The notes under the pieces were generated by a model, which ran no database searches, was not told where the DNA came from, and worked only from the letters and a program-made list of their open reading frames with translations. Made by a program: the position numbers and the translations under genes. A stretch of DNA of 64,000 nucleotides from Mugil cephalus (taxonomy: Eukaryota): contig NC_061781.1 of the NCBI RefSeq assembly GCF_022458985.1, positions 26,257,222 through 26,321,221 on the forward strand. Reading direction: 5' to 3'. This document shows positions 1-51,788 of the stretch, in pieces; within the stretch, counting starts at the first letter, position 1, and the number at the start of each line of letters is the position of its first letter.

Positions 1-566
1 ACTTTATGTTTGTTACCTAAAAAGCTCTTCAACCACCACCACCTCCCCCATAATCATCCCACATATCCATCCAGGATACCTGTTACACAAATCACCATAA
101 AATCTCAACGATTGACCTTAAATTGGAAAGAGATATGTTTAAGTGGTTTTATATCATTATTACACATATCAAGAATAATAACATTTATTATGTCAGGGTC
201 AGTGTCTCCATTAACTTAGGAACTTTATTAAATATGAAGCAAAAACAAACATTTACAGACGTTAGACACTGAATTGGGTCAAACTGACTCCAAAGACAAA
301 TAATAGGAGGGTTAAAAATAAGTGTTGGTCAAAGTGTTACAAACAGAGTTGCTATAAAAGCAAAAAGAGGACAAAGAGGAGGAAGAAGTTAAAAATGATC
401 ATTAAATTAAACACAAAGGACTTTTGAAACGAGCACTGACTAACTACAGGACTAACCAGTAGGTGTCAGATGTTATGTGAATGTATCTCGTCCTCTTCTG
501 ACTTTCTCAGAACAAAGAATTGTGTGTTGACACGTTACAGAAAGCTAACAGCTGTCTTGTCTCCAG

Positions 567-836
567 CCAACTGTGTGCTGATGGTCAGAGAGCTGAAAGA
601 TGTGGAGGTCGCGGCCCCAGACGAAGCCTGCTTTGAATGTGAGGTGTCAGACCCCGTCCTCAGGTCCCCAGTGTGGAGTCTGAATGGGGAACCGTTGCAG
701 CCTGGCCCCCGCGTACACCTGGAGAAGATGGGCACCGTCCACAGGCTGACACTCAGGCAAACCTCCCCAGAGATGAGTGGAGAGGTGGAGTTCACGTCTG
801 GGAAAGCGAAGAGCATAGCCCGGCTTCATGTTCAGG
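567..836 (+). CDS. Single obscurin/OBSL1-type I-set Ig-domain exon (phase 1-1); acceptor ctccag|CC at 566, donor CAGG|GTGAGT at 837
   Basis: Translation ...ELKDVEVAAPDEACFECEVSDPVLRSPVWSLNGEPLQPGPRVHLEKMGTVHRLTLRQTSPEMSGEVEFTSGKAKSIARLHV matches the ~90-aa tandem Ig repeat pattern of obscurin/OBSL1. One Ig per symmetric phase-1 exon is typical of that family. No further plus-strand exons were found in the window. Confidence 0.55.
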
Positions 837-972
837 GTGAGTTCAAGAAGAACATTGTTCTTATTAGTAATAACACAGCTCTCACTAGTGGAAAGCAGCT
901 ACGTATATAAATCAAGTACTGAAGGACAATGTGAGGTACTGGTAGTAGATCCAGAGGGATGAATGTCTCATG

Positions 973-1100
973 TCTGGTTCTGGTCTCATATCTGGTTCCT
1001 GGTCTCAAATCTGGTTCCTGGTCTCATATCTGGTTCCTGGTCTCATATCTGGTTCCTGGTCTCATGTCTGGTTCCTGGTCTCATATCTGGTTCCTGGTCC
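973..1100. repeat. 21-bp minisatellite (TCTGGTTCCTGGTCTCATATC)n, ~6 copies
   Basis: Direct tandem copies are visible in the sequence. Confidence 0.9.
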
Positions 1101-3399
1101 TTAAACTAATGTAAACATGTATTTGTCACATTAGAACATCAGAGCTGATTCAGACACTTGTCAACATCATCACATCAGAAACATTAGGACACTTGTTCTT
1201 CTTCATGGTTCCTAATAAACCAGGTCAGAGGGGGACCTTGTAGACCACATTAGACCCCAATTAGACCTGACAATGTTTCATTGATCTTCTCCGATTGGCT
1301 CAATGAAAACCACATGACAATAAACCTCACTGAGAGGAACCAGGACACCACGTTACCACATATGGTTCCTGGTTCCTGGAGGGTTCAACCAGAGCTCCAA
1401 CCTTTTTACACCTCTGACATCTTACAAGTTCAGTGTGTAGTTGGAGTCAAGTATCTATGAGTCGTTAACATTTTATTAAATTAATAAATGGATTATGTTT
1501 TACAGTAGGTGGAGTGATGGAAAAGAGTTCAAACCTTTCATGTAATTCACTGTTTAATCACTAGATGGAGACAACAGCACAGTCTTGGATTTGTCCTGTT
1601 TGACTGAAACCAAGTAAAGTGGATCAGAGCCTTCTCATGCGGCAGATGCAATTTGTGTTTGCTTGTATTTTTTGCTTCAATTAGCAGAGAAAAACCTTCA
1701 GACTGATTCTGAATAGTGTGGGCAGAATGCTAACTTGTGTTCATGACTTGTCATGGCTCATGTGGCACATGTAACAATAAATACAGCAAATATTTACAAA
1801 TAGTAAACTGTGTTCTGTAGATCATGAGTCTTCAACTAGGGGGTCAAAAAATTGGACGTGTATTTATTTATTGGATGTGTATTTATTGAGTTTAATACAG
1901 AACACAGTAGGGTCCCTACTCAATCTCTCCATCACTTTGGGTCCTTGGCCTGAAAAATGCTGCAGACCTCTGCTGTAAATAATATATGGTGTTTATTAAT
2001 GGTTGCACTCTATCAACAGCAGGAAACATCCTCACAGCAACTTATAGTGGAGAGAAACTGAAGTTTGAGGTTTATTATGAGGGTGAATGGCTGTAGAGCA
2101 AAGGGGTCAAACTAAAACCAACACACAGGCCAAAAGTTTGGAAGAAACTTCAAGTTTGTGTTCACGATGCCTTTCTTAAAAATCAGCATGAGTTCTATGC
2201 ATTTTATTTATTTATGTATTTACTGCATGATCAGAAACTATGATCTTTCATGTACAAATTTGATCTTGCTTCCAAACTCTTGGCCTGTTGTGCATTAATG
2301 AGCGTACACAGGTTGCATGTTAGTAGTACACGTATCCTCAGGCGTCCGGTTGAGTCAAGGAATATTATTTGCAGCTGCTTTTGCAAAACGAAAGCTTATA
2401 GTCGTAGCATTTAGTCGGGTATGACGGGTCACATGGAGGAAATATTCACACCTCTCTTACACGTCTTCCGTTTACTTTTTTCTGCCTAGACATGAGCTCA
2501 CTGATGTAGAACACTGACACTAACATAAACAGTATCACATTAGGCCGTATTAGACTCTGATTGACATGACATCATTCAGTCCCTTAAAAGGAAGCGCAGG
2601 ACGGAAAAGAAATGTCAGCCTGTGTAAAGGCTTAGTTATATTCTGTGTTCTGCTGCCGATTATGTCACAGGGTCACATTTTTGACAGAAATAGGCCTTGT
2701 TAACCGATGCTTTCTGGTCCTGAGTCACATTTTTGTCTGCTCACATTTCCCAGGTCCTCCTTAACGTCCCTTATCTGCCACCGTCTGATCGACATGGATG
2801 GATCCTATTGACACTGACGCTGCTTATGTGACTTAGAAACATGGCTGCGATTGATCTTCATGCGATTTTCATTTAATTATCTCATAACTTTAAGAAACCT
2901 CTGTTCACAGAGGACGTGACGTTTTATTTTTGTGGAAGTGTGTGAACGTGATTTGGCTGTGAGTGGGTCATGATAGCTTAAGGTGAATGTGTATTTTTGT
3001 GTGCGGTTAGATCAATACAATCCACATTAAAGTCCCATATTGTAGTCAAGTCTGAGGCCATACAGTAGCAAAACCAACTTTCTTAAACTCATGTTTATAC
3101 ATAAATGATCTATTTAAAAACTACTTGAGAGGTTTGTGTCTTGGTTCTTTGTCCAGAACCAAACTTAGACTTAGAGGTTTTACAGAGCCTATAAAAAACC
3201 CTTGGACGTATAATTAATGGAATCATGATCAATGTAATTTGCTTTAGTGCTCTAGTGTCTGAGTGAAGACAGATTTTTAGATGAGACATAACAGAACAAC
3301 TATTGTTCTTCAACAAGTTCCTCACGAGTCAAAGACACAGGAGACTGAAGTTCAACTCAAATGATGTTCTTTAGTCAAATTAGACCTTAATGCAGTGGT

Positions 3400-3560
3400 T
3401 TGTTTTCAGACTGGACGTTATGTCCCTAAACACAGAGAAACACTGGTCCCATGGTGAAGCATGGTGGTGGCAGCATCATGGACGGCTCGTAAAGGTGGAG
3501 GGTGAAAAAGTTAAATCCACACAGACCCAGTGATGAGTTGAGTGGGCAACAATGTGTGTG
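3400..3560 (+). mobile_element. Short Tc1-like transposase fragment (VKHGGGSIM)
   Basis: The plus-strand translation VKHGGGSIMDGS matches the conserved ...VKHGGGSIMLWGCF... block of Tc1/Sleeping-Beauty-type transposases. The flanks are decayed. Confidence 0.4.
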
Positions 3561-5349
3561 AACACATATACAAGCACTTATTTTACATTATATATATTTA
3601 AATAATGGTCATTACTTTGTAGAAATCTGTTTTCACTTTGACATGAAAGTATTTTTGTAAACTCTTGTCAAAAAAGCCAAAACATATTGACCCTGATTCC
3701 ATGAAAAAGCAGGTGAATCATTTTAAAATGCTCTTTTTTTTTAAACCTGATTTGCACCCCATATATCATGTCAGAGCATGGGTTTGTGTGGCTGCATGAG
3801 CTATTACCACTAAGGTCACGGGATTTTATCACTTATTCATTTGTAAAGAAACAGTTTTTTTATGTTGTGGTGAAATGTTTGGATGGAGGAAATTCTGTCT
3901 AGTAGCACAGGGCTTGTAATGTAAATACATTGGGCCAAAAATGAGGTAATTTAGGAAAGAAATAAGATTTTAAAAAAAAAAGAATTACTTCATCGCCTTG
4001 ATTGATAATCAGGGAATGCTTGAGTTACTGAAATTGCTTTGTTGAGTGAAGAATGAAAGCTGTTTTCATATGAAATCTGTTCCATATTCCATTTTTTTCA
4101 TTCGACTCGTGTCCACGTTGTGCTGAGCGTTAGTTCTGTGAAATGAAGTACTGTAGTGAAATATGACTGTTTCAATAAAACATGCTTTATTGAAGCAAGG
4201 TAAAAATGTCTCGTCATCTTTTTTTCCAGTCTTTACAGCAGAAGTTTAAAAACACACATGTTTGAACCAGTTTCTTTACTTCAGTCATAATTAGTTAATA
4301 ATTTTGTTGAATACAGTAAAAAAAAAAAAAAATTCAATTATTAATTAAAGATTTGTGGTTTATCGTGTATCACGCTGACGCTTTCACGCTCAAAGTCACA
4401 CACACACTAAAGTGAATCAAGACTCAAGTGATGTTACACATCAGTACGGCAACACACTGGACTCAGTTCATGTGAAATAGCTCAGTTCAAGTTTATCAAC
4501 AGGAGGCTTCAGGATCAAACTTCTATCTAAGACGCTTCCTCCTGCACACACACATAAAACAGGATTTCTTTACCCATTAGCTGCACACTGTGTTGACACA
4601 ACTAACAACTGAACACATAAAATGACAATAGATAAAATAACATTAAAAGCTAAGTCTTGATATCCTCTATTTACATTAATAATCTCACCACTGCTGCAGC
4701 ACACACAGTACAATAAATCCAGACTTTGTTTTGGTCTGGACAAATATTATAATTTCTATAAACATTACTAATTTGTGGTTGAGCTACAGTAACATGAGGA
4801 TGTCATGAGCCTTTTACTGTAAATCACCTACAACTTTGTGAATGTCTACTCTCTATTACACGTCTTTTAAATCGAAACGCTCCAGTGTGTGGTTCAAATC
4901 TTTGCAGTGTTCGGATGATGATTGTGTTCGTTTGACAGGACAGTCCTGAGTGTTTCAAATAATAAATGCTGCACTGACGGCTACACGGTGGTTCATACGA
5001 CTCTTCACACAGTCTGGCTTCAACAGAGGTCGCTGCTGTCACATAACAACGACATCACACACTAGCTGCACTGCAAAAGGTATCTACACAAGACATTTAA
5101 TCTCATATTATTCTGCATTAAAACAAACAAACAAAAAAAACAGTGGCTACATTAGTCAACGCTGGAGTCCTAAACCAAGCTGGAAGTTTCTTTTTTTTTT
5201 TAATCCAACATGAGATTAAATGATGACAGGTTTCATTCTGCAGTGTGGTCCTTGTAGTGGGAAGCAGAGTGGAGCTCGCGGCCCACCAGCCTCCATGGCC
5301 CCTAACCACAGCCACTGGAGAGTCTTCTCAGCCTCGCATGGTGCCTGTG

Positions 5350-5478
5350 TTAGCTGGACGTCCTCTGCTGCTGGAGAATACCGTACACGTCGTCCACTTT
5401 GCTTAGTCTCTCAAAGAAGGGGATAAGGTCCAGGAGCTCGGTGTCCGACATGTCGTCAAACCAGGACGCTACAGGAAC
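5350..5478 (-). CDS. ctdspl: ctdspl exon 7 (last) [42 protein letters not shown]
   Basis: Acceptor ctccag|GTT. Stop TAA at 5350-5352. Matches the conserved SCP C-terminus. Confidence 0.9.
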
Positions 5479-5599
5479 CTGGAGGAGTGAAAGAGCAGCA
5501 GAGCGACGACTCATTAATGTTTAACGTAGCGTTTTAGGTTTTAGTCGAGACTCCACAGAGAACCGTTAGAAACGCAGGTGAATGAGGTGAATGACGTAC

Positions 5600-5785
5600 T
5601 GCGTTGTCGGGGTGGAAGACGTAGGAAGCGGGGGAGTTGTCTATGATGATGACCTTGTTGAGGTCTCGTCCTAAACGGCTCAGGTCTTTGACGTAGTTCC
5701 CTTTGTGGAAGACGCACGACTCCCGGAAGAGACGGCTCTGGAACGCCCCCCATTTATCCAACAGGTCTGACACTGGGTCAGCGTA
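5600..5785 (-). CDS. ctdspl: ctdspl exon 6 [62 protein letters not shown]
   Basis: Acceptor ttccacag|TAC, donor GCA|GTACGT. Conserved SCP sequence. Confidence 0.9.
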
Positions 5786-6859
5786 CTGTGGAAAAAACAA
5801 GAGGTGGCTTTTTAAAATGATGTTTGTAACAGAAAATCCACTCCACTGCTAAAACAATGGCAAAATGTGCCGGACTTAGCACAAATGCTAACGTTCAGCC
5901 AGATACAGACAATGTCAACACAAATCAAAAAAAGACACAGACAGTTATATATAATATTGAAACACACAATATTATAAAAGAAAAAAAAGAAGAAGAGTAT
6001 GCATCAGATTAAGAAACCTATTTAGGCTGCGTGAGTACATGTCTGATTTATTTTTTTTAAAATAAATTAAAAAAAAAAAAAAACTTTGAAAATGAGACAG
6101 AGATCCATGAAGATTTGGTCGCTGTCCAGATCAAGAATATTATACTTTATTAAAACATTACAGTAATGAAAGTGGTTTCCTCTCTGAAAGTTTAACTGCC
6201 TTCTCAAAGAGAGACTTTGCAGGTTTTACTGTATTTTCACATTTTTGTGTGTGTCCAGGTTGTAAAACAGTAAAACAGAGCGTTTAGTTTCACTGCACGT
6301 GGAAGAATCTTCAGTCTGAAATGAACAGAACTTGTATCTTTTAATGGTAACGGTTTGATAACGTTGTTTCCTAAAGGGTCGACAGGAACCAGGATCAACT
6401 GGACAGAGCCTCTGCTTTTAACTAAGTGAACGTAATAAAACCTTCTCATCAACCTGTAAAATTATTATGTTTTAGATATTTCATCTAAAACATAATCATT
6501 CAATGTGCATTCAATTTTAATGTGCAGTGTGAGCGTAACAATGTGTGTTATATAGCTTTCAAACAATGTCCATGTGTGTGTGTGTGATTAACTGAGTAAG
6601 AACTGACCTGATGCTTCCCAGAGTTCAGGTTCAGACAGTTTGAAGTAAATGTTAGAGGTTAAAACGTCTCTGCAGCCGCCTGACAGGTATCATAAATATC
6701 TCTTTATGTGGACGGTCACAAATCACACACAGCTATTTGCCTGAGCTCCCAGTAATTCTAAGCATAATGTTTTGCTCCAGCAGGTGTCACTTCACAGACT
6801 CTTCATCCACCTGTAACACGCTGCACTTTTTAACAGGTTAAAGTGAGATGAGGACAGAC

Positions 6860-6952
6860 CTTGGACAAGCTCGCCGTGAACAAAACACACTCAAACATCT
6901 CTCCCATTCTCTTGAGGAATTCATCAACGTGGGGTCTCTTTAACACGTACAC
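6860..6952 (-). CDS. ctdspl: ctdspl exon 5 [31 protein letters not shown]
   Basis: Acceptor cacacag|GTG, donor AAG|GTCTGT. Conserved SCP sequence. Confidence 0.9.
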
Positions 6953-7329
6953 CTGTGTGGAGACACAGGAGGCAGAGAGGTAGGACATGCAAAATGTAAT
7001 CATTACTAATTCTGTCATCAGGAATCAGATCAGGAACACAAACGACTGGAAAAAATAAAGAAATAAAAGCCTCTAATCTCTGAACATGAGTTCTATCAAA
7101 ATGTCACAAAGATGTTTAATGTTACGAATGTTCAATGTTCAATGTTTTTATGTTGTTGCGGGACTGATGCAACTTGTACTTGCTTCCATGTGTTGATGGT
7201 TTGAGAAAAATAAAGATCAAATCAAATCATCAGATGGAAAGGAATAATATAAACGCCACTCTGTCTGTTTAACTCCGTTCAGTAGATCAGAAGCTGAACA
7301 GAACTACTTCCACTAAGACGCTGGCGGCC

Positions 7330-7410
7330 TTGTTTCTGAACCAAGTTATCCCGAATAGGCTTTCCCCACTTTAACAAGCCTATCCTGGATTACTTGAAAC
7401 AGACCCAGGC
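7330..7410 (-). ncRNA. mir26a: pre-miR-26a hairpin in the ctdspl intron between E4 and E5; mature 5p arm at 7377..7398
   Basis: The minus-strand 22-mer at 7398..7377 reads UUCAAGUAAUCCAGGAUAGGCU, an exact match to miR-26a-5p. The opposite arm (7341..7362, CCUAUUCGGGAUAACUUGG-like) is complementary and resembles miR-26a-3p. Intronic placement in a CTDSP-family host is the conserved arrangement. Confidence 0.9.
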
Positions 7411-7890
7411 CCTCTGGACAACAAAGCTCCTCTGGCTTCCACAGACTGGAGACACCATTTAAAAGCTGGGGGGGAAAGTCGCTGCCATCCCCAATGAGCC
7501 GCGTATAATATGCACCACAGAGTCAGATTGATGGCCAGTGATTTCTGAGAAGCCTCTTAGGCTTTCTTCATTTCGTCAGGCCACTGAAATAGGCACCTGC
7601 TGCTTGGAGCCATCAACAGGGAGGGATACAGCTCTGTCAGCCTGCGAACACAGTGTCTCCACTGCAAACTCTAAAGATGGATTTTTTTAAATTTACCCAG
7701 GTTTTTTTATGCATGATCCTTAATAAACCAGATATTTACAACAAATTTCCAGTAAGTGCACATTAAACGGTGCTCTGCAGTAATTCAGCTTGCACGGCTT
7801 TAGTTCTTTAAACAAATCTTTGGGGCAGAAAGTCCAGCAAGCTCGTAGAAAGAACAGTAAGTGATTTAAACGAACGTATCGGATTCCTAC

Positions 7891-7947
7891 CTGGTGAACT
7901 GTTCCATCAATTTCCACTGGAATGATAAAGTCTGCATTGTTCACTGG
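7891..7947 (-). CDS. ctdspl: ctdspl exon 4 PVNNADFIIPVEIDGTVHQ
   Basis: Acceptor cctgcag|CCA, donor CAG|GTAGGA. Conserved SCP sequence. Confidence 0.9.
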
Positions 7948-10102
7948 CTGCAGGAAACACACCAAGCACAAACATGAAAGAAATCATTATTTTGTGTTTG
8001 TGCTTCCTCAGATCAGATGCAACAAATCAGAGGTGAAGATGTGTCACGCAGACATGAAGACGCCACCTGTAAATACTTCGAGTCTTGACACTATGTCACA
8101 GATTGTGAGACGGCTCGTAAAAAGATCAGATTTATTTTGGCAGTTCTCACATTTGAAATATGCTCCTCACAAGCACATTCTATGTAAGGCATAACAGCAC
8201 GGCCTAAATCGGTGCACTCTGAGGTAATGCAAGCGAAACAGAGTCAGATCACATGTAAACAGAAAGCACGCATTCAGAAATCACACTGTACGCGTGTTAG
8301 GGTCAGATCCTGCAGCAGCTGCATTTAAATGATTTTGATGATGTATCTTCATCACATGTTAAATCAGAGAAAGAATCTGATGAGTCCAAAGTTAAGAACA
8401 GAGTTTGGGTTGATTCCATGATTTTTTAAATTTTTAACTTCAGCTGTTTATTTTGTCTATGTTTTCATGTCAGAGTAAAATGAGAAATACTCAAACTGCA
8501 AACATTTCAATAAAAAAAGAAAGAAATATTGGAGTGTTCTAAAACTTTTGTATGTTTTGTTCTTTTTGTTGACTCCAAATACTTCAAATACTACTCACAT
8601 CAAATAAAAATCCAACTGTTCTTTCATCTTTTCCACACCTCTGTATGTATCATACACAGATTCAAACATAATAAGAACGGGCATTATATCTTTTAATCCC
8701 CTGTGAGTCTCTTTCCGACTTTGTATACAGTATGCTGCTTTGAAACTTCCACTGTGGGATTAATTAAAAGATTATCATAACTTATTATTCAAATTATATC
8801 AAATAAAATATATCAACATATTAAATATGTCTTTAAATGTATATATATTTTTAAATGTTTTATCATCCTGTCTGTGTGGCTTCATATAATAACATTCAGA
8901 ACCAGTGGTTTTAAGCTGTGAGCAGCGTGCGAGGTGACTTGAGACGGACGTGTAATAATACTCCAGAGCTACGCTTCCTATGCTAATATACACACTAAAT
9001 ATCGACGCAATTTAAATTTTATAGTGGCTTAAAACCTTTGCCACGCAAGCCAGTGGATGTCACACACAACCAGCTGTTACACTGTGTTATTTTTAGTATA
9101 TGTGTCAAATTAAGAATGACTTTTATTATGCTCCTTGAGTTAAGCATGGAGTTCACAGAGTCTGACCCTGTTTACGCATAGCTAATGGCAATATCCAGTA
9201 TCATCCTTTAGGACAGTCTGTGACCTGAGAAGGGCTAAACACCCACCACATGGCATTCATTACATAATTTGCCGTGACACAGGCACCTTGACGTTTGGCA
9301 GTGATTACTTTGTTCACAGAATGCTACCTTAAAAGGCGTCAACGTGATCGAAAGGAAGCTGGAAAAATATAAAACCCAGTGAGCGACACATCGACGCGTC
9401 AAATATTTACTGTTCAGAGATTCGTTCTGTGTAGGCGCGCTTTATTATTAGAAAGGGAAAACAGAGATGATCCTTTTTTCTTTTTTTTTCTCAACTAACT
9501 CATAAATAAAGTCAAGTTTTAAACTCGACACTACAACTCAGGTTTCTGTGTCACATTTATTTGGGTTCGTGAAACCGGACCACTCATAAAATACATATTT
9601 CAGTTTAGTTATTATTATTTTATTATAAATTTATTTATTATTACATTTTCCAGATAGCTCTTCCAAGTGAAGTCAGTAAAACTTTGACCTTTACAGTTAC
9701 ATCAACATACTCAAAGCTCTCAAACAGTAAAAGTGCCTCATAACAATAAGTGAGTAAACACATGTCAGTGAATCTGTCTGCCAACGTCCTGGAGCTCCAG
9801 CAAATCTGACGCAACACTAGTAAAGCACACAAACTGTTGCGTACATTGTAATCCTAGTACGAGACACCATCTTCGGCGATTGTGTCGTTCTAACAGAACA
9901 CGGCTCAGTTAAGGGACATGTTAATGGCCAAGTTTAAAAGTGTCTCTGAAATCTGTTTAAATTGAAGAGTTGGAAAAAGAAACTCACCTGGACGAGTTAA
10001 CAGTTAAATACAGAAATAAAACATGAGCAGTCACGACTTTAGATATCAATTCTACACAACACAACTGCAACTTCTCAATATTGTTTTAATGTTAAATGAA
10101 TA

Positions 10103-12203: not shown

Positions 12204-14744
12204 TTATCTTACCTGCTCTGCTGGTGGAAAGCAGTGTTCGCATTCACATTTCTCAGAGGATTCGTCATCACTTTGCTCCTCTTCTGAATCCCCGCTTTGT
12301 TCGGAGGCCGTGCTACTCTCAGTCCTTTTCACTAGCTCGTCCTTTCCTTCAGTTTTGGTATGTTCCGGGACACTGTGGATAATATCTAGAGGGGGTCCTG
12401 TGTCTCTTGATATTTCATCCAACTTGCACTCACCAAAGTCGTCTAGTTCAATAACTTCAGTGATTCCACATGGGGCTGATTTGCCCTCCTCTGGGCAGAC
12501 TCCGGTGGCCTGTATCTCAGTGTCTTCCACATGTCCTTCATTCATGGAGGCATCCCCATCATTCATTATATTATTGTATGATGTTCTGTTCATAACAAGT
12601 TCGTTCAAGGTTTGTTTAATGGAAGACTGAATGCTTTTAATATGATATGCATAGTACTCCTCAACACCTGCCTTAAAATACTCTCCAGTGTCTTCATTAT
12701 CCACAAGGGCCAAGTATGGCTCCATTTCTGAACATGTCGGAAGCAGTTTATCTTCAGGCTCATCCTTGTCATCCTGTTTGTAGTCAGTACTTGGTGTCTT
12801 GGCCACATCACCAGGACATTCGCAGTGACTGTGGATCTTGTCTTCGTAAGCGTCACCTTCAACAGAGATCTCCTCAGCACATGGTGCAAACATTCTCTCC
12901 TCATTACAAGCAGACGGGCAGGTCTCAGCTCCTTCATTACACACCTCAGAAACATGGTCATTAAATCCACAGTCTTCTTCACCAAAGGGCTCTTTATCGT
13001 CCTCTTCCTCCTCATAAAGGCTGTAGCTCTCTGTTTCATTTTCTTCATCCACAAACATACTTGACTCTGATTTCACCATAAACTCCTCTGGTTCTGTCAC
13101 TGAGTCATAAGACCCATCTGACGGTGCTGCATCTTCTTCATATGCATCTTCAGATAAATCTTCGGTTTCTTGTACATTTATCTCCTCGTCTTCTTCCTCA
13201 TCTTCTTCTTCTTCGTCAGATTTATACGAATATTTCTCACTGTCTTTCTGCTCTTCTTCTTCACGGTACAGGCCTTCATGGATATCTCCTCCATCGAAAC
13301 AGGAGATGTAACGTTGCTTTTGTGCAAACATGAGCCCGTAATAGTCGCCTCTGTCAAACAAATCAAAGTAATCTTCAATAACGATATCAACAACAGGTGT
13401 TTTCTTCATTTCGTCATCACTTTCATTGGCGTTACTTTGCTGCGTTTCTTCATCATCCTCAAAAGACTCCCAGTCCGTCTGCTCGTCGCTGGAGTCTTCC
13501 TGAGCTCTCTTTTCAGATTCCTCGGACGAATCATAATAGGGATCAGAGTGAATACTGCCTTCAGGACAAGTCTTAAAGGATTTGGTTTCCACCGAGGAGC
13601 AATCAGAGGAACTGTCTTCTTCAATGCAGAACATTAAACTCTTCTTAGGTAGCTCTGAAGAAGAAGCACATTGCTGAGTTGGCTTATACTCTTGGGTTGT
13701 TTCAGAGTCATCATTTCCAGAGAACTCAGTGGGATCGTGGGATGTGTCTACGGCAGTAGTTTGCTGTGAGTGTTCTCCGGTGTAAAGCTGTGACTCACAC
13801 AAATCACTTGCAAGGGAGACGTTGTCACTGTTGTCCGAATAAGCAGGTGTGTCCTCTGACTGGTTATGGGACTCTTCATCACTGAGTTCAGTTTCATTTT
13901 GTTGAGGTTCATAGCTGTCATCATCATAATCTTCTTCCTCCTCTTCCTCCTCATCCTCCTCCTCTACCTCATCGTCATCAGTGCATCCAGTTTGGTTGTT
14001 ACTCTCGTCATATTCACAAATGTCAGTACCACAGTGCAATGAGTCCACAGAATCAGAGATGTTGGCCGTTTCACATTGCTCAGAGTCCTCTGTTGATGCA
14101 TCTGTCTCATAGTCAAAGCAGCCACACGGCTGATGTGATGACGGCTTGTAGTGTTGCATTAACTCAAGGTGTTCTGTGCATTCAGGTATGAAACCAGACA
14201 TTTCACACTGCTCCAAAGTGCCACAGTTTGCATCCAATTCGTCTGGATCAAAGTCTGAACACTGTGACTGTTGATCAGAGGGCTTACATTCATGAAATAA
14301 CTGGAGGTGCTGTGCGCAGTGTTCACAGCAGGGACTACATTCGCTAACTAAGCTATGATTAGCACAGAGTTCAGAGCACTCGCACGTTTTAAAACACTCA
14401 CATTGTTGATCACATTCATGGAGTGGTTGGCTTAACTCAGAAGTTTCACACATATTGAGGGTCTGGTCGGAATCAAAAAATCCGCTGCTTTCTGAATATT
14501 GCTGAGAGCTTTCAGTATGTCCATTGTAGGGTTCACTCTCATCTGTGTTCATGTTGCCATGCTCCAGAGAAGCACAAGCGTCCATTTCTCCACTGACAGT
14601 GGGCTCAGGGTACTCCACCAGGACCTTCATGTCCAGTCCAACACTTCCAGTTGAAGGGCTGGATAAGTCAGCAGCTTGGGCCTGGCATTGTTCAGCACGC
14701 ATGGCTTCAGCGGACCGGTCCCCTTCTCCAGAGTCTTTGCTTTT
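12204..14744 (-). CDS. Giant open acidic (Glu/Asp/Ser-rich, Cys-containing) reading frame inside ctdspl intron 2. It is either an 844-codon in-frame cassette exon (12213..14744) or an independent nested 832-aa gene (ATG 14702, TAA 12204).
   Basis: About 2.5 kb with no stop codon. An upstream acceptor ...tttatttggaaaactgag|AAAAGC lies at 14744 in phase 0, and a perfect donor GAG CAG|GTAAGA lies at 12213/12212 in phase 0. ctdspl exon 2 ends in phase 0 and exon 3 starts in phase 0. The protein has EEEDEEEEEEEDYDDD runs and Cys-patterned segments (CECFKTCECSELC, CSPCCEHCAQH, KCECEHC). No family was recognised. Confidence 0.6.
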   Translation of the reverse strand, partial: KSKDSGEGDRSAEAMRAEQCQAQAADLSSPSTGSVGLDMKVLVEYPEPTVSGEMDACASLEHGNMNTDESEPYNGHTESSQQYSESSGFFDSDQTLNMCETSELSQPLHECDQQCECFKTCECSELCANHSLVSECSPCCEHCAQHLQLFHECKPSDQQSQCSDFDPDELDANCGTLEQCEMSGFIPECTEHLELMQHYKPSSHQPCGCFDYETDASTEDSEQCETANISDSVDSLHCGTDICEYDESNNQTGCTDDDEVEEEDEEEEEEEDYDDDSYEPQQNETELSDEESHNQSEDTPAYSDNSDNVSLASDLCESQLYTGEHSQQTTAVDTSHDPTEFSGNDDSETTQEYKPTQQCASSSELPKKSLMFCIEEDSSSDCSSVETKSFKTCPEGSIHSDPYYDSSEESEKRAQEDSSDEQTDWESFEDDEETQQSNANESDDEMKKTPVVDIVIEDYFDLFDRGDYYGLMFAQKQRYISCFDGGDIHEGLYREEEEQKDSEKYSYKSDEEEEDEEEDEEINVQETEDLSEDAYEEDAAPSDGSYDSVTEPEEFMVKSESSMFVDEENETESYSLYEEEEDDKEPFGEEDCGFNDHVSEVCNEGAETCPSACNEERMFAPCAEEISVEGDAYEDKIHSHCECPGDVAKTPSTDYKQDDKDEPEDKLLPTCSEMEPYLALVDNEDTGEYFKAGVEEYYAYHIKSIQSSIKQTLNELVMNRTSYNNIMNDGDASMNEGHVEDTEIQATGVCPEEGKSAPCGITEVIELDDFGECKLDEISRDTGPPLDIIHSVPEHTKTEGKDELVKRTESSTASEQSGDSEEEQSDDESSEKCECEHCFPPAEQVR

Positions 14745-23794: not shown

Positions 23795-23950
<156 letters not shown>

Positions 23951-24246
23951 GGCAAGACACAAAGACTTGTTGTTTCCAGAAGTTTTATTAATACTAGAGC
24001 CACACTAAGCTGTTCACATACATGTATTTTTACATTTCAAGAGTCTAGCAGGTTAGAGGATCTGTTACTGACGGGCACTAACGCCGCGGCTTTGAACTGA
24101 ATGTTACGTCTGTCTAATTGTTAAATCTTCTTTGATATTTTCACCGTCAAAATAAACCACTGCACTTACATGGATAAAGTTATGTACAGCATTGATGCGG
24201 TTTAATTAGTTTCCTGAGCTCCTCGTGGTGCAGACCAGCGGCTGGA

Positions 24247-24385
24247 TCACAGGATGTCCACACGCGCAAAGGACTGGTCTGTGCCCAGGTTGTTCTCCAC
24301 AAACACTTCATACTTGCCAGCGTCGGAAAGCGTCGCTTTTTTGATGGTCAGAATTGTGCTGGTGTCACCAACGTCAAAGAACACC
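24247..24385 (-). CDS. IQ-Ig gene exon D (Ig domain 2, C-half; stop TGA 24247-24249)
   Basis: Acceptor cttccag|G. ...DAGKYEVFVENNLGTDQSFARVDIL* ends in a stop codon. Confidence 0.65.
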
Positions 24386-24473
24386 CTGGAAGACAGTTGC
24401 TATCAGCATTCTTCTTTGATATCTTGATTACGAAACCATTTTTTGCTTTTCTGTATTTTCTCAGTGATCTCAC

Positions 24474-24615
24474 CTGTCATCTTCGTCGATGTCATCTCCG
24501 TCTTTGAGCCAGGCGACATCTGGAGGAGGCTCCCCACTTATTTCAGCCTTGAGGACCACTGTCGTCCCTCTCTTGGCCTTAATGTTGTCTGGGCCTTTAG
24601 AAACCTTTGCAGGTA
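24474..24615 (-). CDS. IQ-Ig gene exon C (Ig domain 2, N-half)
   Basis: Acceptor ctcccag|TA, donor GACAG|GTGAGA. Confidence 0.65.
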
Positions 24616-24895
24616 CTGGGAGAGCATGATGCAAATACTCCGTTAGCCACATGACATGCTGAAGGTAACAGGTACTTCACGATATTGGCTCAAAGGGAAC
24701 ATTTGATGGAAGACAGTGAGAAGATAGAAACTCAAGGAACATTGGCATGATTTCCATTGGCCGCAGTGGGAGTTATGTTTGTGTGCTTTGCCCCTTCATC
24801 TGGCAAATAAGGTGTATCTGATTCCATAAAACCCTGACAAATTTAGAAAATTCCTATTCGATAAGATGGAAACAAATGCCAGCTATAGATTACAG

Positions 24896-25212
24896 TGTAC
24901 ACACCTTCGACTAGAATACAGGCAGATCCAGATGTCTGTCCAAATGGGTTCTTAATGGCGACAGTGTATTTTCCTAGATCAGCCAGAACCCCGTCTCGAA
25001 CCACAAGTGCCACAAAATCTGGGTCTTCAAAAACATAGCGGTACTTGGGGCCGTCCTTCAGCTCTTTGTCGTCCTTGTACCACACAATGAAAGGATCTGG
25101 GAAAGCGCTAACTCTGCACTCCAGCTTTGCTGCACTGCCCTCGACGAGAACCACATCCCTGAGCTCCTGCAGGATCTTTGGAGGGCCTTTCTCCCGCAGC
25201 TCCTTACGTGAC
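24896..25212 (-). CDS. IQ-Ig gene exon B (Ig domain 1)
   Basis: Acceptor ctcatgaag|G, donor GAAG|GTGTGT. Ig hallmarks LECRVS...W(Y)...DLGKYTV. Confidence 0.65.
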
Positions 25213-25376
25213 CTTCATGAGAAACAGCAAAAAAATGGCAGAGGTACTGCAAGCTTCGAACAAATCGGCTTTCCAGTATCGATATATAGGAGCGAGATAT
25301 GACGAATGTTCTGATGGTCACTTCATCATGTGGTCCATGTACACGAGATCAAACCAATAATCGAAAATTCCGGTAC

Positions 25377-25486
25377 CTGTGGCCACGATATGAGGCTTGG
25401 ATTCGGATAGCAGCCTCCTGAACCTGAGGATCAGTGATGTTTATGGTGCATCCAGGAGGTGGTGCAGTCTTAACTTTGGACATCTG
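25377..25486 (-). CDS. IQ-Ig gene exon A (ATG 25486; IQ motif IRIQASYRGH); donor CACAG|GTACCG phase 2
   Basis: ATG immediately follows cttttgcag, so an upstream 5' exon is possible. The IQ consensus IQxxxRGxxxR is present. Confidence 0.6.
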
Positions 25487-26604
25487 CAAAAGTCAGAGGA
25501 GGTTAGCACTTAACACACAACCAACTTTCTGAATTTTAGTTACAGCTCAATGCCACATGTCTTACTTTGAAGATCCTCTCCACTTCCAGTCCAGTCCAGA
25601 GCCAGCAAACCTACAAGTCTTGATGCTTTATATGAAGAGGTCAGGAGAAGTGCTGCAGGTCCAGGGGGGTTGAGGCGAGATGTCATCCAGACATTCATTC
25701 TCCTTCTATGGTTATTAGGAAATATTTACACATGACTGATTGAAGTTGGGCAACAAATGTTCCAGAGACCCATCCTTATATAGCGTTCAAATCAAATACT
25801 CTTGAGAATCCTTGGAGCAGTTAATGGTTTAGTAAATTGTTGTTTGTATAGTGTGCTGAAATATGAGTCCTCCCTCATGACAATAAGCACATACATGTTG
25901 GTCTACGGGGTCGTGAAGTGGGAGTGGTGTTTACTTAGACTTACCTTAGTTCATGTGAGTACCATTTATTACAATTCAGGTCAGTTTCAAGAAAACTTAA
26001 TTGTTTGTTACAGGGGTCTTCAACGTTTTTCAGATTAGGAAGAGACCCCCTACTTACTATAGATGTTCTGTATTAAACTTGGCCTAGTGCTATTTATAAA
26101 TATGCATTATCATTATCATTTTGCATTCAATATTAAGGTATTGAAATAATACACAGGTTCAAATATTCATTTTTTTATTTCAAACATGTGCAATAGTAGG
26201 ATGGTCGTGCACCTGCCATAATCATAAACATACCTAACTGGTACATATACACATGCACCTGGGCATTGAATAGTCCAATAGCGTGGAACCTGATAGAGTC
26301 AGCGTGTGATATGCAGCCTCATGATTGGCTCAGCAGCAATAGAGGCGGGGCCTACTGCCTACTGTGTGCAGGAGGCTTAGGCTGTGTCCGAAATCGCCTC
26401 CTAACCGTACTACTACATAGTAGATTACATCCTGTACCTTTTTCCAACAAACTTCTGCACCATGTCCATTCATGTGTCATTTATTTCTTTTATTGTTCAT
26501 AACCTCAACACCTGTCACTCCATTTCCATGCCAGATTCAGAAATGTCACGAATAAAAAGCAGAAGCTTTAACAAATACAGTCTCTCAATAAATAAACAAT
26601 TTGC

Positions 26605-28984: not shown

Positions 28985-29228
28985 TCAGTGGGTGACGGGT
29001 GTGGCGGGTGACGGCGTGCTGAGGCTAGTGGGGGTTTGTGGCGAGCTCTGGTAGGACCGCAGGAGGACTTTGTGCTTGGTGGCCTGCTCCTCTCGTCTGC
29101 GCTGCTGGTCGGCCAAGAATTCCTTGAGACGGTTAGTTGTAAAGGTGAGAGTTTGCCTGCGAAGGCGCATCAGGTAGGCATCTTGAAGCCAGGAGTTATT
29201 GAAGCAGTCCTTGATGCTTGGACGAGCC
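28985..29228 (-). CDS. speg: speg last coding exon ([81 protein letters not shown])
   Basis: Acceptor tcaacag|G completes the Trp codon. Stop TGA at 28985-28987. The conserved SPEG C-terminus is present. Confidence 0.9.
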
Positions 29229-29349
29229 CTGTTGAAGACGACATTGAGGACCCACATAATTAAAGATTTACAAAAATCTAAATTAGACAGATAAACATTA
29301 AACAACTGATCAGTTAATATCAAGTCTCCCAGTCAAAGGTTGAGCTTAC

Positions 29350-29840: not shown

Positions 29841-30395
29841 CTTCAAGGAGAAGAAAGGGAAACATGAACTGCAAATAATATTTGCACCTTGTGTACTACG
29901 GTTTGTGACGTGTCATATGTATATGTGTTAAAGCCGAATAACTTAAATACGTGTGAACAGTTTTATTTTCTAATCCGCCTTTGTTTTCATCGCGGGAGCA
30001 CGCCCACAACTCAACAACTGTTGCATAAACCTCCTCATCTTCACAGTAACGAAGCTGAGTATTAATAGAATAAATCAACAAGCTGCCAAAATGAACAGAG
30101 TGAGATCTTTTATTTATACTTGCTTTGATATATTTTTATATCTATTACTTTCTAATCAATAATCACAGTCAAAATGACAAACAACTAATTCTGTAGTTAT
30201 GACTGTATTTTTATTTTTTTCCTAATTGGTCCTAATCTTTAAGCGTACCTTAGATTTATTTGTGGACGTATGGTAATTATTGCTTTCTTGATATTAAACC
30301 CTATTCTATCACTTTGGAATTTACTTTACGATTGATCCAGGTGTCAATAAAGGCACAAATAACCTTTAGTAGACTGACAAAAATGAAACTCTTAC

Positions 30396-30619
30396 ACATA
30401 TACTCCAGTGTCCCAATAGGAGGGCTGAACTGTTTGAGGAAGAGAGGGTTGTATGTCTGGGCACAGCCAAAGTCGATGATCTTTATGACGTTCATGTAGG
30501 TGACAATGACATTCTCCGGCTTAATGTCCAGGTGGAGGATCCGTCGGGTATGAAGGTAGTCCAGACCTTGGAGGATCTGCACAATGTACGTCACCGCATC
30601 GTCCTCTGAGTAACGGAAC
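30396..30619 (-). CDS. speg: speg kinase 2 catalytic core (RFRYSEDDAVTYIVQILQGLDYLHTRRILHLDIKPENVIVTYMNVIKIIDFGCAQTYNPLFLKQFSPPIGTLEYM)
   Basis: Acceptor tctctcag|G, donor ATGT|GTAAGA. Confidence 0.9.
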
Positions 30620-30733
30620 CTGAGAGACACCAGAGAACACCTTGTTACGGGACCATGCCAAGAATGCGTCAAGGCAGTTTGCAGACTGCCATCTTTTAAA
30701 CCAGCTTGGTCTACGCTACAAGTACAGCTTCAC

Positions 30734-30973
30734 CTGTCTATAAGGCTGTAGAGCAACTCCTTCCCACTGCAGTACTCAGAGATAAGCACCAGATAGCGTG
30801 GTGTGACATAAGCTTCGTGCAGGGCCATGATCCTGTCGTGATGAAGGGACTTGAGGATGTCATATTCCTGCAGCACTGCCTGCTTGCTGTCTGCTTCATA
30901 CGGGACAATCTTAGCCAAGAAAAGATTGCCTGTGGCATTCTCCCGACACTCACGGATCACACCAAACCGACCC
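30734..30973 (-). CDS. speg: speg kinase 2 N-lobe ([80 protein letters not shown])
   Basis: Acceptor gtcacag|G, donor GACAG|GTGAAG. Confidence 0.9.
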
Positions 30974-31321
30974 CTGTGACATAAAGACGAACAGGCAACA
31001 GCACATACAATGCTAAGTTTATGTACAGCTGCTAATCTCATATTCAGTACCCATGATGTTATTGCATCATGCAAAGTTGCGGTTACTGATTGTATAACAT
31101 TTAGATATATTTTATCCCTCAGAATGCAGTAGACAGATGCAATTTTCTAAAAATATCTATAAATCTTGCCTTTGTCTTTCTTTATTTCTAGTCAGTGTCA
31201 CATTTTAACTGTATCATCATCTTTTCAAGCTTTGTAATCGGCACCAAAATTCACATTTTAGTTGATTTTGCTTGACCCACATATTGGTATATTATCCTGT
31301 AATCCCAATCTGATTTGTTAC

Positions 31322-49402: not shown

Positions 49403-50172
49403 CTGCAAACAGACAAACCATGGGAGAACATTTCTCACTGAATGTCATTTTAATTCGGTCAGGGGCGACTGAAATCCATCTACTAAAAGAAAGATCATTA
49501 TTGATCTTGTGACACTAATGGAAAATTGTGTCCCTATAGAGGTAGTAGATGAGCCCCCGCTGTTTCTATAGGAACCAACTTGACTCTTCCACCATGTGTG
49601 GTGAACAACAACTGGATATTGCAACGCATGTCGTAGGTGACACATTTTAATTGGAGCACTTACAAATAAAAACAATTTCTGAGATTGGCTGTAGAATCTT
49701 ACTTAGAAGCACCATGATTGATGCACAGTACGGGTTTTATGCCTTGCAGGAGGCGAAAATGTAATAAAATCAGACTCGTGTTCTCACACAATTAGGGAAG
49801 AATCCCAAGTGTGACAAAATGCGTAACCAAGATTTAATTAACTTTTGTTGCTTCATCACTTCTTCTGTTGAATGTACTAAATTCACTGTACTGTACAGGT
49901 ACTAAATAATTATCTCATCATATCTGCAAATGAATATTAAGGAAGGGAATATATACACGTAATGTATCCAAAATACATTTGTCATTCAGTATTTTGGGAA
50001 ATATTTCAGCTATCGCTTATTAAATGTGAAAATTTGTCCCAGCTTCTCTCAGTCTGAGTGAAAATTCAGTTGTCGGTAGGACTCAAAATAGAAAGCGCTT
50101 TTGAGTCATTGGCATCCCAGCAGCTCTCATGAGGTGTTTGCTTCCCAGTAGGTGGAATTACTTATATATATA

Positions 50173-51788
<1,616 letters not shown>

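What the first reader, a model, noticed from the sequence alone, without database searches (positions are those of the whole stretch)
24247..25486. Compact IQ-motif + two-Ig-domain gene wedged between SPEG and ctdspl
Four phase-consistent exons encode a 235-aa protein: N-terminal MSKVKTAPPP..., a neurogranin/GAP43-type IQ motif (IRIQASYRGHRSRK), then two I-set Ig domains, ending in a stop. I cannot match this architecture to a named muscle Ig protein; telokin, APEG-1 and MyBP-H lack an IQ motif. It sits 3.5 kb downstream of the SPEG stop on the same strand, and its ATG directly follows an acceptor-like cttttgcag. It may therefore be either an independent gene or an alternative 3' terminal module of a neighbouring transcript.
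Basis: partly seen in the sequence, partly recalled or inferred. Interest (0 to 1): 0.6.

Follow-up and report, generated by a model that had tools for sequence, protein, structure and literature searches.

The report
Fish copy of known SPEGNB gene
The small IQ-motif plus two-Ig-domain gene is real and correctly assembled, but it is the already-annotated grey mullet ortholog of SPEGNB ("SPEG neighbor", formerly "CAVP-target protein"), a conserved chordate muscle gene of untested function, so the finding is ordinary.

Summary
On the minus strand, four GT..AG, phase-consistent coding exons (25483-25377, 25212-24905, 24615-24474, 24385-24247) encode a 231-aa protein (not 235). It has a Pfam-significant IQ motif and two I-set Ig domains.

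The claim that it has no named counterpart is wrong. The product is identical to XP_047457689.1, "SPEG neighbor protein-like [Mugil cephalus]". It is 68-93% identical to SPEGNB / "CAVP-target protein" from shark to whale, and about 50% identical to tunicate homologs.

SPEG followed by SPEGNB on one strand is conserved in chimaera, gar, teleosts and a whale. Tunicate copies have no SPEG-like gene within 10 kb.

The evidence favours an independent gene over a SPEG 3' module:
- Four teleosts share an ATATAAAG TATA box, a GTAAG donor about 65-85 nt downstream of it, and the ..cag|ATG acceptor. This implies a short non-coding leader exon.
- A conserved block downstream of the SPEG stop ends at a double AATAAA, about 850 nt upstream of that TATA box.

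dN/dS is about 0.03.

The downstream neighbour scores closer to CTDSP1 than to CTDSPL.

The likely function is inferred, not shown: a cytosolic muscle adaptor that binds calmodulin or a calmodulin-like protein through the IQ helix and docks through a titin-like Ig tandem. Novelty: already known. Interest: low.

The parts
25773..25784 (-). Conserved upstream element GCTATATAAGGA (CArG-like / TATA-like)
   Evidence: Conserved between mullet and walleye (GCTTTATAAGGA) in alignment A1. A regulatory role is inferred only.
25754..25759 (-). E-box CATTTG inside the conserved block AACATTTGTTGC
   Evidence: 12/12 nt identical in walleye. A role as a muscle bHLH site is inferred only.
25627..25632 (-). 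TATA box (TATAAA within cttcATATAAAGcatc), 150 nt upstream of the ATG
   Evidence: ATATAAAG is present upstream of the ATG in mullet (-150), walleye (-491), catfish (-313) and Diretmus (-217), each followed by a GTAAG donor about 65-85 nt downstream.
25566..25602 (-). Inferred non-coding leader exon (5' end approximate, about 30 nt after the TATA box); ends ..GAGGATCTTCAAA
   Evidence: The donor AAA|GTAAGACATGTG is conserved with walleye (AAG|GTAAGAGATGTG) and Diretmus (AGG|GTAAGATATGTG). It contains no AUG. The 5' UTR ends of transcript contigs L003 (..gagcatctccagg) and L004 (gaggaccacag) resemble it and not the sequence just upstream of the ATG. There are no mullet RNA data, so the exon is inferred.
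25484..25565 (-). Leader intron (82 nt), GTAAGA...TTTTGCAG
   Evidence: An acceptor ..cag|ATG is present in all four teleosts.
25377..25483 (-). Coding exon 1: Met1 to the first two bases of the Arg36 codon; carries most of the IQ motif
24905..25212 (-). Coding exon 2: end of the IQ helix plus the first I-set Ig domain
24474..24615 (-). Coding exon 3: first half of the second I-set Ig domain
24247..24385 (-). Coding exon 4: second half of the second Ig domain and the TGA stop (24249-24247)
23984..23989 (-). AATAAA poly(A) signal of the gene, about 260 nt after the stop (3' UTR roughly 24246-23965)
   Evidence: The transcript contigs of relatives also end shortly after AATAAA signals. Use of this signal is inferred.
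26480..26494 (-). Context: double AATAAA where the block conserved with walleye (27389-26472) ends; probable end of the SPEG 3' UTR, about 850 nt upstream of the SPEGNB TATA box
   Evidence: Inferred; no RNA data.
28985..28987 (-). Context: stop codon of the upstream SPEG-type gene
   Evidence: ORF 28985..29323 aligns to the end of the annotated 3607-aa gene in walleye. The kinase domain lies at 30304-31074.

Best explanation
This is the Mugil cephalus ortholog of SPEGNB (SPEG neighbor protein, formerly 'CAVP-target protein-like'). It is an independent gene lying between the SPEG 3' end and a ctdsp1-like gene.

Gene structure. It has one short non-coding leader exon, transcribed from its own TATA-box promoter about 150 nt upstream of the ATG, plus four coding exons.

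Product. It encodes a 25.4-kDa acidic protein with no signal peptide. An N-terminal helix (residues 19-44) carries a complete IQ motif (IQASYRGHRSR). A rigid titin-like tandem of two I-set Ig domains follows.

Shown here: the identity, the exon structure, the architecture, strong purifying selection, the linkage to SPEG across jawed vertebrates, and the conserved promoter/leader signals.

Inferred: it is a muscle adaptor. The IQ helix holds calmodulin or a calmodulin-like EF-hand protein, as reported for amphioxus CaVPT binding CaVP (my recollection of Takagi & Cox 1990 and Petrova et al. 1996; not read here). The nearly invariant Ser31 in IQ-A-S-Y-RGH could act as a phospho-switch, as in neurogranin/GAP-43. 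The Ig tandem would dock the complex on a sarcomeric or junctional partner.

My confidence is about 0.97 for identity, about 0.85 for an independent promoter, and about 0.45 for the calmodulin-adaptor mechanism.
For: Identity: the exact 231-aa sequence equals XP_047457689.1, 'SPEG neighbor protein-like [Mugil cephalus]'. Top hits are SPEGNB / CAVP-target proteins: 92% identity in other teleosts, 79% in gar, about 75% in mammals, about 70% in sharks, 68% in coelacanth; about 50% in tunicates named 'SPEG neighbor protein-like'.

Exon structure: the same four coding exons occur in gar, walleye and Diretmus. Intronless transcript contigs exist in relatives.

Architecture: Pfam IQ above its gathering score plus two I-set domains. 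The IQ core Q29, R33, G34, R38 is invariant in 31 vertebrate and tunicate sequences; I28, S31 and H35 are at least 90% conserved. AlphaFold2 mean pLDDT 87.7, helix 19-44 followed by two beta-sandwiches. The best solved-structure matches are titin Ig tandems (2ill, target-normalised TM 0.85, rmsd 2.5 A). There is no hydrophobic N-terminus.

Selection: dN/dS 0.031 and 0.036.

Synteny: SPEG-type giant protein followed by SPEGNB on the same strand in gar, walleye, whale and chimaera.

Independence: TATA box, GTAAG donor and ..cag|ATG acceptor are conserved in four teleosts. AATAAA signals lie at the end of the conserved block downstream of the SPEG stop, upstream of that promoter. Tunicate copies have no SPEG-like neighbour within 10 kb.

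Muscle expression in other species: human tongue and skeletal muscle, at low level (PMC9846087); pig longissimus, qPCR-validated (PMC10137702); Botryllus muscle cells by FISH (PMC4893630).

IQ type: the tunicate-profile search also retrieved neuromodulin-like and igloo proteins by their IQ segment; the neurogranin and neuromodulin IQ peptides appear among the PDB hits.
Against: No RNA data for this species were available, so the leader exon, transcription start and poly(A) site are inferred from conservation and from very short (11 and 22 nt) 5' UTRs of transcript contigs of unidentified relatives.

No protein of this family has a tested function in vertebrates; PMC9846087 calls the function 'still undetermined'.

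The amphioxus CaVPT sequence could not be retrieved. The link to the only biochemically studied member therefore rests on database names and on my memory of the literature.

The neurogranin and neuromodulin matches in the PDB are weak on their own (E 0.18), and the same IQ flavour occurs in Sp17, RSP23 and CFAP91.

Human SPEGNB is expressed at very low level and carries a frameshift allele at about 6% frequency (PMC9846087, PMC11576641). That fits poorly with an essential role, at least in humans.

One automatic annotation (Diretmus) has a SPEG-type gene model whose range spans SPEGNB.
Confidence: 0.9

Rival explanations
1. The four exons are an alternative 3'-terminal module of SPEG. A SPEG exon would splice to the acceptor at 25483, or SPEG transcription would read through, so the IQ + Ig unit would be made as part of, or only together with, a SPEG transcript.
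For: Same strand and only 3.5 kb after the SPEG stop. The acceptor lies directly in front of the ATG. The SPEG-SPEGNB tandem is conserved from chimaera to whale while the next gene varies. In the Diretmus record a 3617-aa SPEG-type model's range spans SPEGNB. The SPEG locus is known to produce several products, such as APEG-1 and BPEG (my own knowledge).
Against: A TATA box and a leader-exon donor are conserved in four teleosts in front of the acceptor. AATAAA signals at the end of the conserved block downstream of the SPEG stop lie upstream of that promoter. Transcript contigs of relatives have short 5' UTRs that resemble the leader exon, not SPEG. The Met-Ser-Lys start is conserved from sharks to mammals. 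Tunicate orthologs have no SPEG-like gene within 10 kb. NCBI models it as a separate gene in dozens of species. The Diretmus model is 3617 aa, the same size as SPEG elsewhere (3607-3659 aa), so it does not appear to include the extra 195-230 residues, and no SPEG-like coding sequence lies within 3 kb either side. Rare read-through chimeras cannot be excluded.
Confidence: 0.06
2. It is an unexpressed or decaying ORF: a pseudogene, or Ig exons left over from duplication of the neighbouring giant Ig gene.
For: Human SPEGNB is barely expressed and is listed as a polymorphic pseudogene (frameshift allele frequency 0.058). No expression data are available for the mullet.
Against: dN/dS is about 0.03 with synonymous sites near saturation. 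The reading frame and all splice sites are intact. The protein is 68-93% identical across jawed vertebrates and the IQ core is invariant out to tunicates. Full-length spliced transcripts have been assembled from RNA of related fishes. Expression was validated in pig and tunicate muscle.
Confidence: 0.02
3. It is a secreted or cell-surface two-Ig protein, and the 'IQ' match is incidental.
For: Two-Ig tandems also match receptor ectodomains such as MuSK, Robo, DCC and PTP-delta in sequence and fold searches.
Against: There is no signal peptide or transmembrane segment; the highest 15-residue hydropathy window lies inside an Ig strand and the N-terminus is hydrophilic. The best matches are intracellular sarcomeric I-set domains of titin and MyBP-C. 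The IQ core is invariant across about 500 million years, which an incidental match would not explain.
Confidence: 0.01

Closest known systems
SPEGNB (SPEG neighbor protein), vertebrates; human gene at 2q35
   Same: Same family and clearly orthologous. Identical to the NCBI mullet model, and 68-93% identical in other jawed vertebrates. Same 230-240-aa IQ + 2 I-set architecture, same four coding exons, and same position just downstream of SPEG on the same strand.
   Different: Nothing of substance. Fish proteins lack the 5-8 extra N-terminal residues of tetrapods, gar and sharks. The gene after SPEGNB is ctdsp1-like in ray-finned fish, GMPPA-like in the whale, and PLC-delta-like on the opposite strand in the chimaera.
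CaVPT, the target of calcium vector protein in amphioxus muscle (Swiss-Prot CAVPT_BRALA; Takagi & Cox 1990; recalled, not read here)
   Same: As I recall the literature: about 26 kDa, an N-terminal IQ motif followed by two Ig folds, abundant in muscle, binds the calmodulin-like CaVP through the IQ segment, with binding modulated by phosphorylation. Many vertebrate orthologs of the window's protein carry the name 'CAVP-target protein' in NCBI or UniProt. The window's product is 25.4 kDa.
   Different: Sequence relatedness to CaVPT itself could not be measured here, because it was never retrieved. As far as I know, vertebrates have no CaVP ortholog, so the partner would have to be calmodulin or another EF-hand protein. 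Orthology versus mere architectural likeness is untested.
Telokin (from MYLK) and APEG-1 (from SPEG): small Ig proteins made at giant muscle kinase loci
   Same: Small, cytosolic, muscle-type I-set Ig proteins encoded at or next to a giant Ig/kinase gene. Telokin is among the sequence hits (1FHG, E 4e-14).
   Different: Telokin and APEG-1 are made from internal promoters and share exons and reading frame with the parent kinase (my own knowledge). This gene lies beyond the SPEG stop and its probable poly(A) site, shares no SPEG exon, has two Ig domains rather than one, and has an IQ motif.
Neurogranin / GAP-43 (neuromodulin) / PCP4 'calpacitin' IQ proteins
   Same: The IQ segment AAIRIQASYRGHRSRK closely resembles the IQASFRGH core of these proteins, including the Ser that protein kinase C phosphorylates in them (my own knowledge). 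Arthropod neuromodulin-like and igloo proteins and the 4E50/4E53 IQ peptides are retrieved by this segment.
   Different: Those proteins are small, disordered and neuronal, with no Ig domains. The matches are short and individually weak (E 0.18), and the same IQ flavour occurs in Sp17, RSP23 and CFAP91.
Titin tandem Ig pairs (A168-A169, Z1Z2)
   Same: Best sequence and fold matches for the two-Ig unit (3B43, E 1.5e-63; 2ill, target-normalised TM 0.85, rmsd 2.5 A, 33% identity). In the model a continuous strand runs across the domain boundary (E127-145), as in tightly coupled tandems.
   Different: This is a free-standing 231-aa protein, not part of a filament, and it has an IQ helix.

Membership tests
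SPEGNB (SPEG neighbor protein) | Full-length sequence orthology to named SPEGNB proteins | tested here: met
   Exact match to XP_047457689.1. E 7e-140 and 92% identity to teleost SPEGNB-like; 68-79% to gar, mammal, shark and coelacanth SPEGNB over 95-100% of the length.
SPEGNB (SPEG neighbor protein) | Architecture: about 230-240 aa, N-terminal IQ motif followed by two I-set Ig domains, no signal peptide | tested here: met
SPEGNB (SPEG neighbor protein) | Genomic position directly downstream of SPEG on the same strand | tested here: met
   Window: kinase-ending giant Ig gene stops at 28985 and the ATG is at 25483. Same arrangement in gar, walleye, whale and chimaera.
SPEGNB (SPEG neighbor protein) | Conserved four-coding-exon structure | tested here: met
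   tblastn exon maps in gar, walleye and Diretmus.
SPEGNB (SPEG neighbor protein) | Striated-muscle expression | not testable with these tools
   No mullet RNA data. Literature for human, pig and a tunicate only.
CaVPT (amphioxus CAVP-target protein) | IQ motif plus two Ig folds in a protein of about 26 kDa | tested here: met
   25.4 kDa, IQ + 2 I-set. The CaVPT properties themselves are recalled from the literature, not read here.
CaVPT (amphioxus CAVP-target protein) | Significant sequence similarity or orthology to CAVPT_BRALA | not tested
   The amphioxus sequence never appeared in the word-indexed searches. The exhaustive search was flooded by giant Ig proteins. Only the source-given names 'CAVP-target protein' on vertebrate orthologs point to it.
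CaVPT (amphioxus CAVP-target protein) | Binds the EF-hand protein CaVP through the IQ segment | not testable with these tools
   This is a biochemical property.
IQ calmodulin-binding motif (Pfam PF00612) | Consensus [FILV]Qxxx[RK]Gxxx[RK] scoring above the Pfam gathering threshold, on an exposed helix | tested here: met
   IQASYRGHRSR; 23.6 bits against 20.3. Invariant Q, R, G, R. Helix 19-44 in the model. Actual calmodulin binding is not testable here.
Internal-promoter Ig products of giant kinase genes (telokin / APEG-1 type) | Shares exons and reading frame with the parent kinase gene | tested here: not met
   All exons lie 3.5 kb or more beyond the SPEG stop codon and beyond the AATAAA signals that end the conserved block downstream of it. 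The gene has its own conserved TATA box and leader exon.

The most novel reading that the evidence does not exclude
The SPEG-then-SPEGNB same-strand tandem has been kept since the common ancestor of chimaera, fish and mammals, while the gene on the other side changed. This could reflect a functional coupling. SPEGNB might be a calmodulin-carrying (or other EF-hand-carrying) accessory subunit, substrate or regulator of the SPEG kinase at the triad or junctional membrane complex, co-regulated with SPEG through shared enhancers or occasional read-through. That would make it an overlooked Ca2+-sensing partner in the SPEG pathway behind centronuclear myopathy and cardiomyopathy. Nothing here tests this; the evidence only fails to exclude it.
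Probability: 0.1. Interest if true: 0.6.

Novelty: already known. Interest (0 to 1): 0.12.

Why it matters
As a genome-scan finding it does not matter much. The gene is already annotated in this species with the identical protein, and it has a name across vertebrates. Two points have some residual value. First, SPEGNB is a deeply conserved chordate muscle gene (dN/dS about 0.03, IQ core invariant out to tunicates) whose function in vertebrates is still described as undetermined. Second, this analysis gives comparative evidence that it has its own TATA promoter and a short non-coding leader exon, which explains the acceptor in front of the ATG and argues against it being a SPEG 3' module. Its constant position next to SPEG, a disease gene for centronuclear myopathy and cardiomyopathy, makes it a reasonable but speculative candidate for a functional partner.

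Tried and rejected
1. Exact-protein look-up of the window's product in the contig index found nothing on record, so the mullet locus annotation could not be read. Orthologous loci were used instead.

2. Retrieving amphioxus CaVPT failed four ways: a search with a tunicate homolog; a search with a tunicate-only profile; an exhaustive phmmer search, whose top 150 were almost all 1,000-7,700-aa multi-Ig proteins with summed domain scores; and the AlphaFold-database fold search, which is not installed.

3. The gar upstream region shows no detectable nucleotide conservation with the mullet, so promoter conservation is shown only within teleosts.

4. The N-terminally extended 'isoform X1' or longer models (P0010, P0015, P0016, P0018, P0021, P0025) have extensions that are unrelated to one another. 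P0025 even replaces the IQ exon. I treated them as prediction artefacts, not as evidence for an upstream coding exon.

5. MEF2 and SRF consensus matches in the conserved upstream block are imperfect (CArG-like with one mismatch). I list them as conserved elements only, not as identified binding sites.

6. Literature searches for SPEGNB, CaVPT and 'CAVP-target protein' found no functional study of the vertebrate gene. The original CaVPT papers are not in the library.

7. The Diretmus SPEG-type model that spans SPEGNB was checked for SPEG-like coding sequence around SPEGNB, and none was found within 3 kb either side. It remains unresolved and is probably an over-extended automatic model.
Full report

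Yes. The gene lies on the minus strand. Reading the sequence and assembling the exons gives four coding exons:

- 25483-25377 (107 nt, ATG at 25483)
- 25212-24905 (308 nt)
- 24615-24474 (142 nt)
- 24385-24247 (139 nt, ending in TGA)

All three introns are GT..AG (164, 289 and 88 nt). The quoted N-terminus (MSKVKTAPPP) and the IQ segment (IRIQASYRGHRSRK, spanning the exon 1/2 junction) are both present.

Pfam finds an IQ motif at residues 23-42 (23.6 bits; gathering score 20.3) and two I-set Ig domains (E 1e-38). The ATG is directly preceded by ..gacttttgcag.

The upstream same-strand gene ends at 28985 (ORF 28985..29323), 3.5 kb from the ATG. Its last exons encode a protein kinase domain, and I-set domains lie further upstream.

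**2. What is it?**

The exact 231-aa sequence is already in NCBI as XP_047457689.1, "SPEG neighbor protein-like [Mugil cephalus]". The window is therefore grey mullet, and the NCBI annotation has the identical CDS.

The homology search returns full-length proteins named "SPEG neighbor protein(-like)" or, in older annotations, "CAVP-target protein":

| Group | Identity to the window's protein |
|---|---|
| Other teleosts | 92% |
| Gar | 79% |
| Mammals | about 75% |
| Sharks and chimaera | about 70% |
| Coelacanth | 68% |

Searches seeded with more distant hits show tunicate members (Ciona, Styela) at about 50% identity, also named "SPEG neighbor protein-like".

In a 31-sequence alignment the IQ core residues Q29, R33, G34 and R38 are invariant from tunicates to mammals. 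I28, S31 and H35 are at least 90% conserved.

dN/dS against two transcript-derived orthologs is 0.031 and 0.036, with synonymous sites near saturation. So this is a functional gene under strong purifying selection.

**3. Gene structure and independence from SPEG**

tblastn shows the same four coding exons in gar, walleye and Diretmus. Two Logan contigs, L003 (961 nt) and L004 (1220 nt), each carry the entire CDS without introns and must therefore be assembled transcripts. This confirms the splicing pattern in related fishes.

Their 5' UTRs are short (22 and 11 nt). They do not resemble the window sequence immediately upstream of the ATG, which implies a spliced leader.

In the window, on the minus strand:

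- A TATA box (ATATAAAG; TATAAA at 25632-25627) lies 150 nt upstream of the ATG.
- A donor, TTCAAA|GTAAGA (exon end 25566), follows about 65 nt downstream of the TATA box.
- An 82-nt intron then runs to the ..ttttgcag|ATG acceptor.

The same arrangement is found in walleye, Diretmus and the distantly related catfish: ATATAAAG, then a GTAAG donor 65-85 nt downstream, then a ..cag|ATG acceptor. The TATA box sits at -491, -217 and -313 from the ATG respectively. Further upstream, mullet and walleye share a CArG/TATA-like element and an E-box-containing block.

The inferred leader contains no AUG, and the start codon has an A at -3.

Between the SPEG stop and this promoter, a 1-kb block conserved with walleye ends exactly at a double AATAAA (26480-26494). 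This is most simply read as the end of the SPEG 3' UTR, about 850 nt upstream of the SPEGNB TATA box.

Together these points favour an independent gene with its own promoter. It most likely receives a non-coding leader exon, not a SPEG exon.

All of this is comparative inference. No mullet RNA data were available.

**4. Synteny**

A 3,265-3,659-aa giant protein (Ig-rich in gar, walleye and chimaera; no Pfam hits on record for the whale model), followed by SPEGNB on the same strand, is seen in gar (8 kb apart), walleye (4.2 kb), blue whale (3.3 kb) and elephant shark (8 kb).

The gene on the far side differs between lineages:

- a NIF-domain phosphatase in ray-finned fishes
- a GMPPA-like nucleotidyltransferase in the whale
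- a PLC-delta-like gene on the opposite strand in the chimaera

In Ciona and Styela there is no SPEG-like gene within 10 kb, so there the gene stands alone.

In the window, the NIF-domain neighbour (exons at 11365-5368, minus strand) scores 354 bits against human CTDSP1, 330 against CTDSPL and 320 against CTDSP2. That also fits a 2q35-like neighbourhood: a CXCR1/2-like receptor lies at 61.5-62.6 kb. The human map positions are from my own knowledge.

**5. The protein and how it probably works**

AlphaFold2 with the ortholog alignment gives a confident model (mean pLDDT 87.7). It shows one long helix (residues 19-44) carrying the IQ motif, then two beta-sandwich domains joined by a continuous strand.

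The closest solved folds are titin Ig tandems, for example A168-A169 (target-normalised TM 0.85, rmsd 2.5 A, 33% identity). Sequence matches are likewise led by titin and MyBP-C.

There is no signal peptide or transmembrane segment. The product is 25.4 kDa with pI 5.3.

The IQ segment belongs to the AA.IQA.(F/Y)RGH..RK class. It retrieves arthropod neuromodulin-like and igloo proteins and the neurogranin and neuromodulin IQ peptides in the PDB. It also retrieves Sp17, RSP23 and CFAP91.

Expression evidence from other species:

- low, tongue- and skeletal-muscle-restricted expression in humans (PMC9846087)
- a qPCR-validated, developmentally regulated transcript in pig longissimus (PMC10137702)
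- FISH signal in muscle cells of the tunicate Botryllus, alongside Myosin-7 (PMC4893630)

From this I infer, but have not shown, a cytosolic muscle adaptor. The IQ helix would hold calmodulin or a calmodulin-like EF-hand protein. The Ig tandem would dock on a sarcomeric or junctional partner. The conserved Ser31 is a candidate phospho-switch.

This mirrors what I recall of amphioxus CaVPT (IQ + two Ig folds, binds CaVP; Takagi & Cox 1990; Petrova et al. 1996). I could not read those papers here. I also could not retrieve the CaVPT sequence, so that link is a lead, not a test.

**6. Caveats**

- Human SPEGNB is very weakly expressed and carries a frameshift allele at about 6% frequency (PMC9846087; PMC11576641). 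It may be dispensable in some lineages.
- One automatic annotation (Diretmus) has a SPEG-type model whose range spans SPEGNB. Its product length (3,617 aa) matches ordinary SPEG, and there is no SPEG-like coding sequence within 3 kb either side. I regard it as an over-extended model, but rare read-through cannot be excluded.

**7. Verdict**

It is a real gene and most likely independent, but it is not an unnamed architecture. It is SPEGNB, also known as CAVP-target protein-like, and it is already annotated in this species.

Novelty: already known. Interest: low. The only open question is the untested vertebrate function of this conserved neighbour of SPEG.

Noticed in passing
window 50163-51788 (+): A complete Tc1/Sleeping-Beauty-type DNA transposon inside a SPEG intron. 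It has 214-nt terminal inverted repeats (50163-50376 and 51575-51788, 99% complementary) around an intact 340-aa transposase ORF (50540-51562) with HTH_SB, HTH_Tnp_Tc3_2 and DDE_3 domains. It looks young and possibly still mobile.
   Followed up: partly
window 12204-14702 (-): An uninterrupted 832-aa ORF, extremely acidic (pI 4.05, 28% Asp+Glu) with a Cys-rich N-terminal part. It lies on the gene strand just upstream of the first NIF-domain exon (11365-11279) of the ctdsp1-like gene, probably inside that gene's first intron. It has no Pfam family and no tblastn hit in the gar or walleye loci, which cover only part of that gene. Unexplained.
   Followed up: partly
   Followed up: yes
window 61506-62573 (-): A single-exon 355-aa rhodopsin-family GPCR, closest to human CXCR2 and CXCR1 (E 4e-80 and 3e-78). 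It lies beyond the 5'-most SPEG-type exons seen in the window.
   Followed up: partly
window 470-910 (+): An I-set Ig domain ORF on the opposite strand at the left edge of the window, closest to MyBP-C, titin and obscurin Ig domains. It is probably an exon of another muscle Ig gene running off the window.
   Followed up: partly
window 23800-23950: A long (GATA)n/(GACA)n microsatellite, with a proline-coding homopolymer-like run just below it. It starts immediately 3' of the SPEGNB poly(A) signal and generates spurious ORFs on both strands.
   Followed up: no
L010 (Diretmus argenteus, GCA_048569125.1) 1-8340: A 3617-aa SPEG-type gene model whose annotated range spans the whole SPEGNB gene and at least 3 kb beyond it, although no SPEG-like coding sequence is detectable within 3 kb either side of SPEGNB. 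It is either an over-extended automatic model or a hint of read-through transcription.
   Followed up: partly
proteins P0010, P0015, P0016, P0018, P0021, P0025, P0124: Several database models of SPEGNB orthologs look like annotation artefacts. Six have N-terminal extensions unrelated to one another. P0025 replaces the IQ-coding exon altogether. P0124 has an internal insert at an exon junction.
   Followed up: partly
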